41,625 nt of DNA from the IMG/VR virus record IMGVR_UViG_2529293039_000011, one strand, 5' to 3'. Source of the stretch: a virus. Taxonomy: Duplodnaviria > Heunggongvirae > Uroviricota > Caudoviricetes. The stretch's first letter is position 1. Each line of letters starts with the position of its first letter. Both the position numbers and the translations under genes were made by a program. Under the pieces are notes generated by a model. It searched no databases. It was not told the DNA's origin and saw only the letters and a program-made list of their open reading frames with translations. Below are positions 24,606 to 28,085 of this stretch, in pieces.

Positions 24606-26113
24606 TGGCAATTCTTGATGATGTGATTGGCGTTTTTTCACCAGGATGGAAAGCGGCAAGGCTGCGTTCCCGTGCGGTGATCCAGGCTTATGAGGCCGTA
24701 AAAACGACGCGGACACACAAAGCCCGGCGGGAAAACCGAACTGCCGACCAGTTAAGCCAGTACGGGGCCGTGTCGTTACGTGAGCAGGCCCGTTACCTTG
24801 ATAACAACCACGATCTGGTTATTGGTGTATTTGACAAGCTGGAAGAACGGGTGGTGGGGAAAAACGGGATTATTGTCGAGCCACATCCGGTATTACGCAA
24901 TGGGGCCATTGCCCGTGATCTGGCAGCGGAGATACGCACCCGATGGAGTGAATGGTCTGTCAGTCCGGAAGTCACCGGGCAGTTTACCCGTCCGATGCTG
25001 GAACGTCTGATGCTGCGTACCTGGCTGCGCGATGGTGAGGTGTTTGCCCAGATGGTTTCCGGGCGCATAAACAGCCTGACGCCTTCTGCCGGTGTTCATT
25101 TCTGGCTGGAGGCGCTCGAGCCGGACTTTATTCCCATGACCAGTGATGAGAGCAACAGGCTGAATCAGGGCGTGTTTGTTGATGACTGGGGGCGTCCCGA
25201 AAAATATCTGGTGTATAAAAGCCGTCCCGTATCCGGGCGGCAGATGGAAACCAAAGAAGTGGATGCAGAGCGAATGCTGCATCTTAAATTTGTTCGCCGT
25301 CTGCACCAGATGCGCGGGACGTCTTTGTTGTCCGGTGTGCTGATCCGCCTCAGTGCCCTGAAAGAGTATGAAGATTCTGAGCTGACTGCAGCAAGGATCG
25401 CCGCTGCTCTGGGGATGTACATCCGGAAAGGCGACGGGCAGAGCTATGAACCGGATGGTAATGGCAGCAAGGAGAATGAACGCGAGCTTACCATTCAGCC
25501 AGGCATTATTTACGACGATCTGAAACCCGGCGAAGAAATCGGAATGGTGAAGTCGGATCGTCCCAATCCTAACCTTGAAACTTTTCGTAATGGTCAGTTG
25601 CGTGCCGTGGCGGCGGGCAGTCGTCTGAGTTTTTCCAGTACGGCACGCAACTATAACGGCACTTACAGCGCCCAGCGTCAGGAACTGGTTGAGTCTACTG
25701 ATGGCTACCTGATCCTGCAGGACTGGTTTATTGGTGCCGTCACCCGCCCGATGTATCGTGCCTGGCTGAAACAGGCTGTGGCATCCGGTGTTATCAGGCT
25801 ACCCCGCGATCTTGACCGTTCTTCACTGTATACCGCGGTGTATTCCGGACCAGTGATGCCGTGGATTGACCCTGTTAAGGAGGCTGAGGCCTGGAAAATC
25901 CAGATTCGTGGTGGAGCGGCGACAGAATCAGACTGGGTACGTGCAGGTGGTCGTAATCCGGATGATGTCAAACGTCGGCGCAAGGCCGAAATTGATGAAA
26001 ACCGCAAGCTGGATCTGGTATTTGATACCGATCCGGCCAGTGATAAAGGAGGCAGCAGTGCCGCAACGAAACGACAGGAGCCACAGCACACCGACGACCA
26101 GTCCGAAGAATAA
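24605..26113 (+). CDS. Portal protein, lambda-B-like (about 502 aa; track ORF begins at 24533)
   Basis: Size, position after gpW and conserved portal core; start chosen at ATG overlapping the W stop. Confidence 0.88.
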   Translation: MAILDDVIGVFSPGWKAARLRSRAVIQAYEAVKTTRTHKARRENRTADQLSQYGAVSLREQARYLDNNHDLVIGVFDKLEERVVGKNGIIVEPHPVLRNGAIARDLAAEIRTRWSEWSVSPEVTGQFTRPMLERLMLRTWLRDGEVFAQMVSGRINSLTPSAGVHFWLEALEPDFIPMTSDESNRLNQGVFVDDWGRPEKYLVYKSRPVSGRQMETKEVDAERMLHLKFVRRLHQMRGTSLLSGVLIRLSALKEYEDSELTAARIAAALGMYIRKGDGQSYEPDGNGSKENERELTIQPGIIYDDLKPGEEIGMVKSDRPNPNLETFRNGQLRAVAAGSRLSFSSTARNYNGTYSAQRQELVESTDGYLILQDWFIGAVTRPMYRAWLKQAVASGVIRLPRDLDRSSLYTAVYSGPVMPWIDPVKEAEAWKIQIRGGAATESDWVRAGGRNPDDVKRRRKAEIDENRKLDLVFDTDPASDKGGSSAATKRQEPQHTDDQSEE

Positions 26114-28085
26114 TTCCTGGTTCAGGATGCAGGCTGGTCACCAGAGTGACGCGGATATTTATATTTATGACGAGATTGGTTTCTGGGGTGTTACAGCGAA
26201 GCAGTTTATCAGTGATCTGAATGCACTGGGCGATATCACCCACATTAATCTCCATATTAATTCACCGGGTGGCGATGTCTTTGAAGGCATCGCCATTTTT
26301 AATGCGCTGAAAACACATGGTGCGTCCATTACCGTTTATGTCGACGGTGTGGCGGCGTCAATGGCGTCGGTCATTGCGATGGTGGGAAACCCGGTCATTA
26401 TGCCGGAAAACACCTTCATGATGATTCATAAACCATTTGGCTTTACGGGCGGTGATGCGGAGGACATGCGCACCTATGCCGACCTGCTCGATAAGGTTGA
26501 GGCGGTTCTGTTACCCGCTTATGCACAGAAAACCGGGAAAACCACCGATGAAATTGCTGCCATGCTGGCGGATGAGACCTGGATGTCCGGTGCCGAATGT
26601 CTGGCACAGGGATTTGCTGATCAGGTAACGCCAGCCGTTAAGGCAATGGCATGTATTCAGTCAAAACGTACAGAGGAATTTAAAAAGATGCCGGAATCCA
26701 TTCGAAACATGATTACTCCGCCACGCAACAGTGCTCCATGCGTACAGGATGATGAACCTGCAGCCTCCCGGACGCCAGTGCAGGCAGCAGCACCCGTGGT
26801 GGATGAAAACAGTATCCGTGCGCAGGTACTGGCAGAGCAAAAAGCGCGTGTAAACGGTATTAATGATCTGTTTGCCATGTTTGGCGGGCGTTATCAGACG
26901 CTGCAGGCTCAGTGTCTTGCCGATCCTGAATGTTCGCTGGAGCAGGCCCGCGAAAAGTTGTTGAACGAGATGGGGCGCGAGTCCACGCCATCCAATAAAA
27001 ATACCCCGGCTCATATTTATGCCGGTAACGGTAATTTTGTGGGGGACGGGATCCGCCAGGCGCTGATGGCGCGTGCCGGATTTGAAAAAACCGAACGTGA
27101 TAATGTCTACAACGGGATGACCCTGCGTGAATATGCCCGTATGTCACTGACTGAACGGGGTATTGGGGTTTCCAGTTATAACCCGATGCAGATGGTCGGT
27201 GCGGCGTTCACACACAGTACGTCTGACTTCGGTAATATTCTGCTGGATGTTGCGAACAAAGCCATTCTGCAGGGCTGGGAAGATGCCCCTGAAACCTATG
27301 AACAGTGGACGCGGAAAGGTCAGTTGTCTGATTTTAAAATTGCCCATCGTGTGGGTATGGGGGGCTTCAGTGCTCTGCGTCAGGTGCGTGAAGGGGCGGA
27401 ATATAAATACGTCACCACCGGAGATAAACAGGCCACTATTGCACTGGCGACCTATGGCGAGCTGTTCAGTATCACCCGTCAGGCCATTATCAATGATGAT
27501 CTGAATATGCTGACCGATGTCCCGATGAAACTGGGCCGTGCGGCGAAATCCACTATTGCCGATCTGGTTTATGCCATTCTGACGTCTAACCCGAAAATCT
27601 CCACAGATAATGTAAGTCTGTTCGATAAAGCGAAACATGCAAACGTACTGGAGAGCGCTGCAATGGACGTGGCATCGCTGGATAAAGCCCGCCAGTTGAT
27701 GCGCGTTCAGAAAGAGGGGGAGCGTCATCTGAATATTCGTCCTGCGTTCGTACTGGTACCGACGGCGATGGAGTCTGTTGCTAACCAGGTCATTCGCTCC
27801 TCAAGTGTCAAGGGGGCTGACATTAACGCCGGTATTATTAACCCGGTGAAAGATTTTGCGACCGTTATTGCAGAGCCTCGTCTTGATGATAACAGCCAGA
27901 TCACCTTCTACCTGGCTGCGTCCAAAGGCTCCGATACGATTGAAGTGGCTTATCTCAACGGTGTGGATACGCCATATATTGATCAGATGGAGGGCTTCAG
28001 TGTGGATGGCGTGACAACGAAAGTGCGTATTGACGCCGGTGTCGCGCCAGTTGATCACCGCGGTCTGGTGAAATGTACGGCGTAA
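26058..28085 (+). CDS. Fused ClpP-like prohead protease / scaffold / HK97-fold major capsid protein (about 675 aa; track ORF 25866..28085)
   Basis: GTG start 6 nt after AAAGGAGG; N-terminal ClpP-like protease block (INSPGGDVFEGIAIFNALK...MASVIAMVG), middle low-complexity linker, C-terminal capsid-like domain. Confidence 0.8.
   Translation: MPQRNDRSHSTPTTSPKNNSWFRMQAGHQSDADIYIYDEIGFWGVTAKQFISDLNALGDITHINLHINSPGGDVFEGIAIFNALKTHGASITVYVDGVAASMASVIAMVGNPVIMPENTFMMIHKPFGFTGGDAEDMRTYADLLDKVEAVLLPAYAQKTGKTTDEIAAMLADETWMSGAECLAQGFADQVTPAVKAMACIQSKRTEEFKKMPESIRNMITPPRNSAPCVQDDEPAASRTPVQAAAPVVDENSIRAQVLAEQKARVNGINDLFAMFGGRYQTLQAQCLADPECSLEQAREKLLNEMGRESTPSNKNTPAHIYAGNGNFVGDGIRQALMARAGFEKTERDNVYNGMTLREYARMSLTERGIGVSSYNPMQMVGAAFTHSTSDFGNILLDVANKAILQGWEDAPETYEQWTRKGQLSDFKIAHRVGMGGFSALRQVREGAEYKYVTTGDKQATIALATYGELFSITRQAIINDDLNMLTDVPMKLGRAAKSTIADLVYAILTSNPKISTDNVSLFDKAKHANVLESAAMDVASLDKARQLMRVQKEGERHLNIRPAFVLVPTAMESVANQVIRSSSVKGADINAGIINPVKDFATVIAEPRLDDNSQITFYLAASKGSDTIEVAYLNGVDTPYIDQMEGFSVDGVTTKVRIDAGVAPVDHRGLVKCTA

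What the first reader, a model, noticed from the sequence alone, without database searches (positions are those of the whole stretch)
26058..28085. Head module uses a single protease-scaffold-capsid fusion ORF
Instead of lambda C, Nu3, D and E, one roughly 675-aa ORF carries an N-terminal ClpP-like serine protease block, a low-complexity linker and a C-terminal capsid-like domain. The preferred start is a GTG six bases after a perfect AAAGGAGG site, inside the end of the portal gene. The fusion implies that protease, scaffold and capsid are delivered in fixed stoichiometry and separated by autoproteolysis. A terminator follows immediately (28109..28128).
Basis: partly seen in the sequence, partly recalled or inferred. 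Interest (0 to 1): 0.38.

Follow-up and report, generated by a model that had tools for sequence, protein, structure and literature searches.

The report
Known protease-scaffold-capsid fusion gene, probably nested
This is the already described "tripartite" phage head gene (protease, scaffold and capsid protein in one reading frame, as in Salmonella phage Gifsy-2), and sequence comparison suggests it also has an unannotated internal start that makes a second, protease-free copy.

Summary
A 675-codon ORF (GTG 26058 to stop 28085) has a ClpP-type serine protease domain, a central region and a Mu-gpT/HK97-type capsid domain. It starts 5 nt after AAAGGAGG inside the portal gene and is followed by a terminator-like hairpin.

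It is not new. It is 99.9% identical in DNA to phage cdtI orf5 and 70% identical in protein to the Gifsy-2 "tripartite capsid gene". It scores 983 bits (cut-off 475) on NCBIfam NF045540, [quoted passage not shown]. Similar DNA occurs in 2134 of 5426 complete E. coli genomes.

- A lambda-D-like decoration gene is still separate (28172-28495).
- "Fixed stoichiometry" is doubtful.

The doubt comes from an internal ATG (Met211, 26688), present in 72 of 73 homologues. It is preceded at 9-10 nt by AGGA, which is kept at the nucleotide level while the encoded residue varies. This is the strongest synonymous constraint in the gene, and the site lies in its least structured mRNA window. A second, distant clade has an invariant ATG plus Shine-Dalgarno motif at a different spot in the linker.

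The gene therefore probably makes two nested products, as lambda C/Nu3 does. This is inferred, not shown.

The parts
24605..26113 (+). Portal gene (lambda gpB family). Its last 56 nt overlap the start of the fusion ORF.
   Evidence: Pfam Phage_portal_2, E 7.1e-82. RefSeq annotation of the 99.9%-identical E2348/69 prophage.
26045..26052 (+). Shine-Dalgarno AAAGGAGG for the full-length product, 5 nt before GTG 26058.
   Evidence: Read from the sequence. Duplex with the 16S 3' end is -11.6 kcal/mol. Conserved in mEp213 and Stx2_112808.
26058..28085 (+). Full-length tripartite ORF of 675 aa, 73.5 kDa: protease, linker, scaffold-like domain, major capsid protein.
26118..26717 (+). ClpP-like (S14) prohead protease module, aa 21-220. 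Catalytic codons are Ser101 (26358-26360), His124 (26427-26429) and Asp188 (26619-26621).
   Evidence: Pfam PF00574 at aa 31-191. NF045542 head maturation protease, 216 bits. Aligned to solved ClpP structures with the triad in register. Ser and His 73/73, Asp 69/73. Codon positions.
26674..26677 (+). Internal Shine-Dalgarno-like AGGA, 10 nt before ATG 26688.
   Evidence: - Present in 72/73 homologues although residue 206 varies E/K/Q and residue 207 E/D.
- The third base of codon 206 is one of only two non-Met/Trp third positions conserved at >=95% among 626 columns; the other (codon 121) is mostly Met.
- This stretch has the lowest synonymous entropy in the gene.
26688..28085 (+). Putative nested in-frame ORF from Met211: 465 aa, 50.6 kDa, linker-scaffold-capsid without protease. 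Inferred, not annotated in any record examined.
   Evidence: - ATG in 72/73 homologues.
- Least structured 51-nt window of the gene: rank 1 of 211 across homologues and rank 1 of 636 in the window sequence.
- SD duplex -6.0 kcal/mol, similar to the decoration (-6.6) and portal (-7.1) genes.
- Analogous invariant ATG plus SD in a second clade.
26718..26807 (+). Variable Pro/Ala-rich linker, aa 221-250. This is the only truly low-complexity stretch.
   Evidence: Lowest conservation and most indels of the protein in 73 homologues. Composition.
26808..26987 (+). Conserved helical central domain, aa 251-310. Presumed scaffold, comparable to a delta domain.
   Evidence: Conserved block. The only part of the AlphaFold model with pLDDT 65-85, as three helices. 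No Pfam family.
26988..27017 (+). Short indel-prone connector, aa 311-320. Likely region of the maturation cleavage; the exact site is unknown.
   Evidence: Indels and a drop in conservation. The cleavage role is inference.
27018..28082 (+). Major capsid protein domain, aa 321-675, 38.6 kDa, Mu gpT / HK97-fold type.
   Evidence: Pfam PF25209 at aa 375-672, E 1.8e-54, and PF10124 Mu-like gpT. A profile of this domain hits solved capsid proteins 8rkc/8rkx (E 2e-7) and 9jod (E 2.4e-5).
28109..28128 (+). Intrinsic-terminator-like hairpin GGCCC-GTAA-GGGCT plus T7, 23 nt after the stop codon.
   Evidence: A hairpin with T-run is found in 58/73 homologous loci with different stems per lineage. Annotated as a rho-independent terminator in the mEp213 record.
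28140..28158 (+). Second GC-rich hairpin CAGCCCC-TGAAC-GGGGCTG, just upstream of the decoration gene's ribosome-binding site.
   Evidence: RNA folds of the intergenic region in six phages. Gifsy-2 keeps the structure with a different sequence; in Fels-1 the fold pairs that segment differently.
28172..28495 (+). Separate head-decoration (cement) protein gene, 107 aa.
   Evidence: Pfam Phage_cement_2, E 1.3e-20. phrog_122 head decoration, E 1.4e-46. 61% identical to the Gifsy-2 homologue.

Best explanation
**Identity (about 0.97).** The ORF 26058-28085 is an orthologue of the Gifsy-2 "tripartite capsid gene". It has a ClpP-type serine protease (aa ~21-220), a Pro/Ala linker (221-250), a helical scaffold-like domain (251-310) and a Mu-gpT/HK97-type major capsid protein (321-675).

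**Full-length product.** Translation of the 73.5-kDa product starts at GTG 26058, behind a perfect Shine-Dalgarno site inside the end of the portal gene.

**Assembly (inferred from the Gifsy-2, HK97 and lambda precedents).** The capsid domains assemble on the portal into a T=7 procapsid with the scaffold and protease parts inside. The protease then cuts away everything upstream of the capsid domain. The shell expands, and the separately encoded decoration protein (28172-28495) binds.

**Added here (about 0.65-0.7).** The gene probably makes a second, nested product from ATG 26688 (Met211), behind a conserved AGGA. This would be a 50.6-kDa linker-scaffold-capsid protein without protease. If so, protease dose is set by the ratio of the two starts, as in lambda C/Nu3 and Mu I/Z, and not fixed at 1:1.

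**Terminator (inferred).** The conserved hairpin after the stop codon most likely marks or stabilises the 3' end of capsid mRNA, or attenuates downstream expression.
For: **Identity**
- 99.9% nt identity to phage cdtI.
- 70% aa identity over residues 18-674 to the Gifsy-2 gene, with the same flanking genes.
- NF045540 at 982.8 bits against a cut-off of 475; phrog_133; Pfam domains.
- Catalytic triad conserved.
- About 70 of 78 genomic loci from Enterobacterales, Pasteurellaceae, Shewanella and Pseudomonas carry the capsid domain in one ORF with the protease.
[quoted passage not shown] PMC8538268 states that Gifsy-2 has a trimeric cement protein at the threefold axes. PMC8814770 lists Gifsy-2 as T=7.

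**GTG start:**

**Nested start**
- ATG at Met211 in 72/73 homologues. Stand-alone ClpP-like prohead proteases have Ala or Val there.
- AGGA/GGAG lies 9-10 nt upstream in 69 of the 72. It is kept as GAG, AAG or CAG while the residue changes. The one sequence that lacks the ATG also lacks the motif.
- All other 24 conserved Glu columns mix GAA and GAG. Codon 206 is GAG in 58/58. Its third base is one of only two third positions at >=95% among 626 columns, and the other (codon 121) is mostly Met.
- Synonymous entropy is 0.39 there against a gene mean of 0.805 (sd 0.07).
- The site is the least structured mRNA window of the gene.
- An independent clade of 20 sequences has an invariant ATG in the otherwise hypervariable linker. 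A Shine-Dalgarno motif lies 6-10 nt upstream in 19/20, encoded by varying residues.
Against: - No protein, ribosome-profiling or N-terminal data were available. The nested start is purely comparative.
- The AGGA overlaps a conserved acidic motif of the protease tail.
- Another conserved Met (Met137) also has an SD-like upstream sequence that arises from amino-acid constraint alone, although it shows no synonymous constraint.
- The known nested start of lambda nu3 does not lie in a low-structure window (rank 261 of 400). The mRNA-structure argument is therefore supportive only.
- No database record examined annotates a nested CDS.
- The AlphaFold model was too poor (mean pLDDT 36) to confirm the folds in three dimensions.
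- The primary Gifsy-2 paper could not be read.
Confidence: 0.7

Rival explanations
1. Single-product model. Only the 675-aa polyprotein is made, so protease, scaffold and capsid enter the procapsid strictly 1:1:1 and separate by autoproteolysis. The conserved AGGA-ATG would then be a by-product of protein constraints, or serve something other than initiation, such as ribosome pausing for domain folding or an RNA-processing site.
For: - One uninterrupted ORF in about 70 of 78 loci.
- All annotations list a single CDS.
- 415 copies of aa 1-318 would amount to 14.4 MDa. By my rough estimate this fits inside a T=7 procapsid.
- SD-like sequences can arise from Glu/Asp/Gly codons, as at Met137.
Against: - The nucleotide conservation goes beyond the protein constraint. 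AG is kept at codon 206 positions 2-3 through E/K/Q changes, and this is the strongest synonymous constraint in the gene.
- ATG and motif are lost together in L085.
- A second clade keeps an invariant Met plus Shine-Dalgarno motif inside a hypervariable, presumably disordered linker, where no structural role for Met is expected.
Confidence: 0.25
2. The full-length protein starts at ATG 26127 (652 aa), just after the portal stop, as annotated in the phage cdtI record, and not at GTG 26058.
For: The cdtI record starts the CDS at the equivalent ATG. ATG is the commoner start codon, and this choice avoids overlap with the portal gene.
Against: - The Shine-Dalgarno duplex is only -2.2 kcal/mol, and the local structure is -12.4 kcal/mol.
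- The column is Ile or Leu in 28 of 73 homologues, including Gifsy-2, Fels-1 and the Pseudomonas phage.
- The conserved residues NSW(F/Y) lie upstream of it.
- The GTG column has a start codon in 64/71 sequences, with a mean SD duplex of -8.3 kcal/mol.
- PGAP uses the GTG.
Confidence: 0.07
3. The long ORF is an artefact: two or three adjacent genes joined by a sequencing error or a recent mutation in a decaying prophage.
For: Frameshift-type artefacts do occur around this gene in public assemblies. Portal-capsid fusions of 1159 aa arise from scattered single-base deletions.
Against: The same continuous ORF occurs in cultured, plaque-forming phages (cdtI, mEp460, mEp213, Ayreon, Tritos, Gifsy-2) and in about 70 loci from many genera. 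A curated family model is built on the full length.
Confidence: 0.01

Closest known systems
Salmonella phage Gifsy-2 tripartite capsid gene (STM1034.3n in NC_010393; Effantin et al. 2010, Virology 402:355, PMID 20427067)
   Same: - 70% aa identity over aa 18-674.
- Same order: ClpP-like protease, central region, capsid domain.
- Same neighbours: gpA-type terminase, gpW-like gene, lambda-type portal overlapping the start, terminator-like hairpin, then a DUF2190 decoration gene.
- The AGGA-N10-ATG at the equivalent Met is present.
   Different: The N-terminal ~20 residues and the linker sequence are unrelated, and the start codon is annotated as ATG in Gifsy-2. The experimental data (cryo-EM of capsids and procapsids, T=7, decoration trimers) exist only for Gifsy-2. 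I know them from the title, from my recollection of the abstract and from citing papers, not from the paper itself.
Phage cdtI orf5 / E. coli E2348/69 prophage WP_086214752 (NCBIfam NF045540)
   Same: 99.9% nt identity. Same 675-aa protein in RefSeq with the same GTG start.
   Different: Essentially nothing in this gene. The cdtI record starts the CDS at the downstream ATG and calls it a head maturation protease. The early region of the window is a different lambdoid mosaic.
HK97-type pair with a ClpP-like protease: stand-alone prohead protease followed by a capsid gene
   Same: Same protease family and the same gene order. Stand-alone ClpP-like proteases of Vibrio, Paenibacillus and Staphylococcus phages align to aa ~20-222 and are followed directly by the capsid gene.
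   Different: Here the two genes are one reading frame. A decoration protein is present. HK97's own protease is a different family (S78, own knowledge; also stated in PMC13517437). Cross-linking residues were not examined.
Lambda C / Nu3 / D / E
   Same: Same head-module position after a gpA-type terminase, a gpW-like gene and a gpB-type portal. Lambda has a protease-scaffold fusion with a nested in-frame scaffold gene, nu3 inside C. A separate trimeric cement protein is present.
   Different: - The lambda protease is S49/SppA-type, not ClpP/S14.
- In lambda the capsid protein E is a separate gene.
- The decoration protein here belongs to Phage_cement_2/DUF2190; the Pfam scan returned no lambda gpD family.
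- The nested product here would still carry the capsid domain.
Phage Mu I / Z / T
   Same: The capsid domain is Mu gpT-like (PF10124; PDB 8rkc/8rkx "Mu GpT domain" capsid proteins). By my own knowledge, Mu makes scaffold Z from an internal in-frame start within the protease gene I.
   Different: In Mu the capsid protein T is a separate gene. The Mu protease family was not compared here.

Membership tests
ClpP-like prohead protease/major capsid protein fusion protein (NCBIfam NF045540; Gifsy-2-type tripartite capsid gene) | Full-length match to the family model above its curated cut-off | tested here: met
   982.8 bits against a cut-off of 475, covering aa 32-674 of 675. phrog_133 at 1197.9 bits over aa 15-675.
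ClpP-like prohead protease/major capsid protein fusion protein (NCBIfam NF045540; Gifsy-2-type tripartite capsid gene) | N-terminal ClpP/S14-type protease domain with a Ser-His-Asp triad | tested here: met
   PF00574, E 3.9e-36. NF045542 at 216 bits against a cut-off of 120. Ser101, His124 and Asp188 align with the ClpP catalytic residues and are conserved 73/73, 73/73 and 69/73.
ClpP-like prohead protease/major capsid protein fusion protein (NCBIfam NF045540; Gifsy-2-type tripartite capsid gene) | C-terminal major capsid protein domain (HK97 fold, Mu gpT-like) | tested here: met
   Met at the sequence level: PF25209, E 1.8e-54, and profile hits to solved capsid proteins 8rkc/8rkx and 9jod. 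The 3-D fold was not confirmed, because the AlphaFold model had mean pLDDT 36.
ClpP-like prohead protease/major capsid protein fusion protein (NCBIfam NF045540; Gifsy-2-type tripartite capsid gene) | Single uninterrupted ORF between the portal and decoration genes, syntenic with Gifsy-2 | tested here: met
   The same arrangement is seen in about 70 of 78 genomic loci.
ClpP-like prohead protease/major capsid protein fusion protein (NCBIfam NF045540; Gifsy-2-type tripartite capsid gene) | Proteolytic removal of protease and scaffold, leaving only the capsid domain in mature T=7 heads | not testable with these tools
   Needs virion proteomics or N-terminal sequencing. Known only for Gifsy-2 from the literature.
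Lambda C/Nu3-type nested protease-scaffold gene | S49 (SppA-type) protease | tested here: not met
   The best protease families are ClpP/S14. The SppA model TIGR00706 scores 22 bits against a cut-off of 155. Lambda C is annotated as an S49 family peptidase.
Lambda C/Nu3-type nested protease-scaffold gene | In-frame internal translation start that yields a protease-free product | tested here: inconclusive
   A strong comparative signature at ATG 26688 and in a second clade, but no protein-level evidence.
HK97-type head module (separate protease gene; capsid protein with N-terminal delta domain; no decoration protein) | Protease and capsid protein encoded by separate genes | tested here: not met
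   One continuous ORF. Stand-alone relatives do have separate genes.
HK97-type head module (separate protease gene; capsid protein with N-terminal delta domain; no decoration protein) | Scaffold (delta) domain directly N-terminal to the capsid domain | tested here: inconclusive
   A conserved helical domain at aa 251-310 sits in that position. It has no detectable sequence family, and its scaffolding role is untested.

The most novel reading that the evidence does not exclude
Tripartite (protease-scaffold-capsid) head genes of the Gifsy-2/cdtI type are really two nested genes. A conserved internal ribosome-binding site between the protease and scaffold parts (AGGA-N10-ATG at 26674-26690 here; a relocated ATG plus Shine-Dalgarno motif in the linker of a distant clade) produces a protease-free scaffold-capsid protein. 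Protease dose would then be tuned as in lambda C/Nu3, not fixed at one per subunit. None of the database records examined here annotates this product, although similar DNA occurs in 2134 of 5426 complete E. coli genomes. I could not find it described, but the primary Gifsy-2 paper could not be read.
Probability: 0.6. Interest if true: 0.45.

Novelty: already known. Interest (0 to 1): 0.3.

Why it matters
The fusion gene itself is ordinary. It is a curated family, it was studied in Gifsy-2, and similar DNA occurs in about 40% of complete E. coli genomes. There are still three practical points.

- **Annotation.** Records call this gene "head maturation protease", "Nu3", "preconnector protease C" or "major capsid protein". 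Capsid-based phage classifiers can therefore miss it. One survey could not obtain an HK97-fold capsid protein for Gifsy-2 (PMC8814770).
- **Nested start.** If the internal start is real, it explains how such phages avoid loading about 415 proteases per procapsid. It would extend the lambda C/Nu3 and Mu I/Z nested-gene principle to a case where the nested product includes the capsid protein. It would also add an unannotated major structural protein to many prophage annotations.
- **Testability.** One synonymous mutation (GAG206 to GAA) in any inducible lysogen would test it.

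Tried and rejected
- **Structure prediction.** AlphaFold2 on a 28-sequence alignment of close homologues gave mean pLDDT 36. It was unusable for fold search, so no Foldseek job was run. Only the helical segment aa 250-307 was confident.
- **Primary paper.** Effantin et al. 2010 is not held. Searches for secondary descriptions of Gifsy-2 precursor processing or STM1033 found nothing useful.
- **Frameshift site.** The window has TTT AAA AAG just before ATG 26688, which resembles the dnaX A-AAA-AAG slippery site with an upstream Shine-Dalgarno motif. 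Codons 209-210 are not conserved, so this was rejected.
- **Portal-capsid fusions.** The 1159-aa proteins in public data were considered as programmed frameshift products. Their junctions lie at ten different positions, so they are sporadic 1-nt deletions or errors.
- **Met137 and Met176.** Both were considered as internal starts. Their SD-like sequences follow from amino-acid constraint, show no synonymous constraint, and lie inside the protease fold.
- **Positive control with lambda C/nu3.**
  - Relatives in IMG/VR were all at least 98% identical, which is useless for a synonymous-site test.
  - The single-sequence structure test was negative for nu3.
- **Central region.** No Pfam family was found even at E <= 10.
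- **Internal promoter.** No sigma-70-like site was found in 25500-28700.

Full report
**1. Observation**

The + strand is open from 25857/25866 to the stop codon at 28083-28085. GTG 26058 is in frame. AAAGGAGG occupies 26045-26052 and five bases separate it from the GTG. The portal gene (24605-26113) ends 56 nt downstream, so the start lies inside the portal gene. From the GTG the product is 675 aa, 73.5 kDa.

Pfam finds CLP_protease at aa 31-191 (E 3.9e-36) and Phage_capsid_4 at aa 375-672 (E 1.8e-54), with a partial Mu gpT match. PHROGs gives phrog_133 over aa 15-675. NCBIfam NF045540, [quoted passage not shown], scores 982.8 bits against a cut-off of 475. The hairpin GGCCC-GTAA-GGGCT plus T-run is at 28109-28128.

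**2. Is the protease real and is the capsid domain real?**

The protease segment aligns with solved ClpP structures. Ser101 (AASMA), His124 (MIHKP) and Asp188 (GFADQ) align with the ClpP catalytic residues. In 73 non-identical homologous ORFs, Ser and His are invariant and Asp is present in 69.

A profile of the C-terminal domain from six phages hits solved capsid proteins 8rkc/8rkx ("Mu GpT domain-containing protein", E 2e-7) and 9jod (major capsid protein, E 2.4e-5). An AlphaFold model from a shallow alignment was too poor to use (mean pLDDT 36). The fold assignment therefore rests on sequence profiles.

**3. What it is**

- The DNA is 99.9% identical to phage cdtI and 98.5-99.7% identical to mEp460, Ayreon, Tritos, phi458 and others.
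- Similar DNA is found in 2134 of 5426 complete E. coli genomes. RefSeq names it with the NF045540 product name and uses the same GTG start.
- The protein is 70% identical over aa 18-674 to the corresponding Gifsy-2 gene. Gifsy-2 has the same neighbours and its record cites cdtI as a relative.
- Gifsy-2 is the experimentally studied case: Effantin et al. [quoted passage not shown] I could not read that paper.
- Of 78 genomic loci encoding this capsid domain, from Enterobacterales, Pasteurellaceae, Shewanella, Pseudomonas and others, about 70 have the protease in the same ORF. In the phage collection, 80 records cover at least 80% of the protein.

The fusion is thus a stable, widespread and already named architecture.

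**4. Anatomy**

Conservation across 73 homologues divides the protein as follows:

| Residues | Character |
|---|---|
| 1-20 | Variable N-terminus |
| 21-220 | Conserved protease module |
| 221-250 | Variable, indel-rich Pro/Ala linker |
| 251-310 | Conserved block |
| 311-320 | Short indel-prone connector |
| 321-675 | Capsid domain |

The 251-310 block is the only confidently modelled part of the AlphaFold prediction (three helices, pLDDT 65-85). It has no Pfam family. The rest of the middle is a conserved helical, presumably scaffolding, domain.

Stand-alone ClpP-like prohead proteases of Vibrio, Paenibacillus and Staphylococcus phages align to aa ~20-222 and are followed directly by a separate capsid gene. 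The fusion therefore looks like such a gene pair joined in frame.

**5. Start codon**

- The motif AAAGGAGGCAnCAGTG is conserved in mEp213 (73% aa identity) and in an Stx2d phage (77.6% nt identity), while flanking synonymous positions of the portal gene vary. A Pseudomonas phage has GGAGG-N6-ATG at a comparable position.
- The aligned start column carries a start codon in 64 of 71 sequences, with a mean SD duplex of -8.3 kcal/mol.
- ATG 26127, used in the cdtI record, is Ile or Leu in 28 of 73 homologues. It has an SD duplex of only -2.2 kcal/mol, and conserved residues (NSW[FY]) lie upstream of it.

**6.

A 107-aa gene at 28172-28495 is a head-decoration (cement) protein. It matches Phage_cement_2 (E 1.3e-20) and phrog_122 (E 1.4e-46), and is 61% identical to its Gifsy-2 counterpart. 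The fusion replaces C, Nu3 and E functionally, but not D.

**7. A conserved internal start**

Met211 (ATG 26688-26690) stands out on several counts.

- **Invariant ATG.** It is ATG in 72 of 73 homologues. Three stand-alone proteases have Ala or Val at that column.
- **Conserved AGGA.** AGGA (26674-26677) lies 10 nt upstream. In 69 of the 72 sequences an AGGA or GGAG lies 9-10 nt before the ATG. The single sequence without the ATG also lacks the motif.
- **Conservation is at the nucleotide level.** Residue 206 is Glu, Lys or Gln, always encoded xAG (GAG 58/58, AAG 8/8, CAG 6/6). Residue 207 is Glu or Asp.
  - All 24 other conserved Glu columns mix GAA and GAG. All 22 other Lys columns mix AAA and AAG, whereas Lys203 is AAA in 59/60.
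  - Among 626 non-Met/Trp codon columns, only two have a third position conserved at >=95%. One is codon 206. The other, codon 121, is mostly Met.
  - Sliding-window synonymous entropy is lowest in the whole gene at residues 197-206: 0.39 against a mean of 0.805, sd 0.07.
- **Open mRNA.** The 51-nt window around this ATG is the least structured of 211 windows averaged over the homologues (-4.1 against -11.1, sd 2.1 kcal/mol). It is also the least structured of 636 windows in the window sequence itself.
- **Comparable Shine-Dalgarno strength.** The duplex is -6.0 kcal/mol, close to those of the decoration (-6.6) and portal (-7.1) genes.

The outlier L085 led to a second clade: 19 further IMG/VR contigs, 42-76% identical to L085. 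In that clade the Met211 column is not Met. Instead, an ATG is invariant (20/20) inside the otherwise hypervariable linker. AGGA, GGAG or GAGG lies 6-10 nt upstream in 19 of 20, encoded by different amino acids, and the context is mostly poorly structured. Two clades thus carry the same signature at non-homologous positions between the protease and scaffold parts.

The simplest reading is a nested in-frame gene. Its 465-aa, 50.6-kDa product would be linker-scaffold-capsid without protease.

Caveats:
- There is no protein evidence.
- SD-like sequences can arise from acidic codons, as at Met137, although that site shows no synonymous constraint.
- The lambda nu3 start is not in a low-structure window, so the structure argument is weak on its own.
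- None of the records examined annotates such a product.
- I cannot exclude that the Gifsy-2 paper already mentions it.

I put this reading at about 0.65.

**8. Mechanism**

Shown here:
- one ORF with an intact ClpP-type triad and a capsid domain;
- a strong upstream start;
- a separate decoration gene;
- a conserved terminator-like hairpin.

Inferred from the Gifsy-2, HK97 and lambda precedents:
- The capsid domains co-assemble on the portal into a T=7 procapsid of 415 subunits, with scaffold and protease inside.
- The protease removes everything upstream of the capsid domain. The cleavage probably falls within aa ~311-375 and would leave a protein of about 38-39 kDa.
- The shell expands and decoration trimers bind.

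If only the long form were made, 415 x 34.6 kDa = 14.4 MDa would be internal. With a nested short form, protease would be sub-stoichiometric, as in lambda (C against Nu3; one search shows the nested annotation).

**9. Terminator**

A hairpin plus T-run within 75 nt after the stop codon is found in 58 of 73 loci. The stems are unrelated between lineages: GCCC/GGGC in Enterobacterales, GGGCTATC/GATAGCCC in Shewanella, AGCCCCGC/GCGGGGCT in Pseudomonas and ACCGCACT/AGTGCGGT in Pasteurellaceae. The mEp213 record annotates it as a rho-independent terminator.

It is a conserved part of the module. Whether it terminates transcription, attenuates it or stabilises the mRNA under late antitermination is not known.

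**10. Verdict**

The finding is real, but it describes an already known, very common gene type. Its interpretation is partly right. The added value here is:
- confirmation of the start codon;
- the correction about the decoration gene;
- the refined domain map;
- comparative evidence for an unannotated nested start, which would overturn the "fixed stoichiometry" idea.

Noticed in passing
window 28140-28158: A second GC-rich hairpin (CAGCCCC-TGAAC-GGGGCTG) lies between the terminator-like hairpin and the ribosome-binding site of the decoration gene. mEp213 and the Stx2d phage have a similar hairpin. Gifsy-2 has a hairpin of different sequence at the same place. In Fels-1 the fold pairs that segment differently. 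Its function is unknown; it could stabilise the mRNA, be a processing site or control translation of the decoration gene.
   Followed up: partly
window 25866-26113 (portal/capsid overlap); proteins P0006-P0017, P0043, P0044, P0070, P0071: Public assemblies contain about a dozen distinct 1159-aa (and 1135- and 1080-aa) "portal + protease + capsid" proteins. Their junctions lie at ten different positions, so they come from independent single-base deletions or errors in the stretch where both frames are open. They are not a programmed frameshift.
   Followed up: yes
window 25857-26057: The capsid reading frame stays open for 67 codons upstream of the GTG, inside the portal gene. The same is seen in the Stx2d phage, and 96 codons are open in mEp213. 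Some annotations therefore call a 707-aa protein from an upstream ATG (P0003; Tritos; ASU11).
   Followed up: partly
homologous gene in phage VT1-Sakai (AP000400.1, hit H20): The homologous gene in the Stx1 phage VT1-Sakai is interrupted by IS629, so the match is split into two pieces. This suggests a defective head gene in that prophage.
   Followed up: no
annotations of the same gene in phage records (hits H1-H28): Product names disagree widely for near-identical genes: head maturation protease, protease/scaffold, Nu3, head-tail preconnector protease C, Major head protein, Major Capsid Protein. A capsid-architecture survey could not obtain an HK97-fold capsid protein for Gifsy-2 (PMC8814770). 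This may be related.
   Followed up: partly
loci L011, L013, L021, L087: Near-identical or close copies of this enterobacterial prophage gene sit in assemblies labelled Bacillota bacterium MAG (100%), Proteobacteria MAG from soil (99%), Geobacteraceae MAG (77%) and a 473-bp Chryseobacterium contig (65%). These are most likely contamination or mis-binning.
   Followed up: no
window 1-22000: The left half of the window is a different lambdoid mosaic. The best phage match is phage 2B8, at only 50% coverage and 95% identity, followed by Stx1a phages. The head module matches cdtI and mEp460. This is the usual modular recombination of lambdoid phages.
   Followed up: no
loci L023, L024, L032, L086: A few homologous loci have shortened ORFs (578-614 aa) that lack the protease Ser motif. 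They are presumably decaying prophages in which the protease part is disrupted while the scaffold-capsid part stays open.
   Followed up: no
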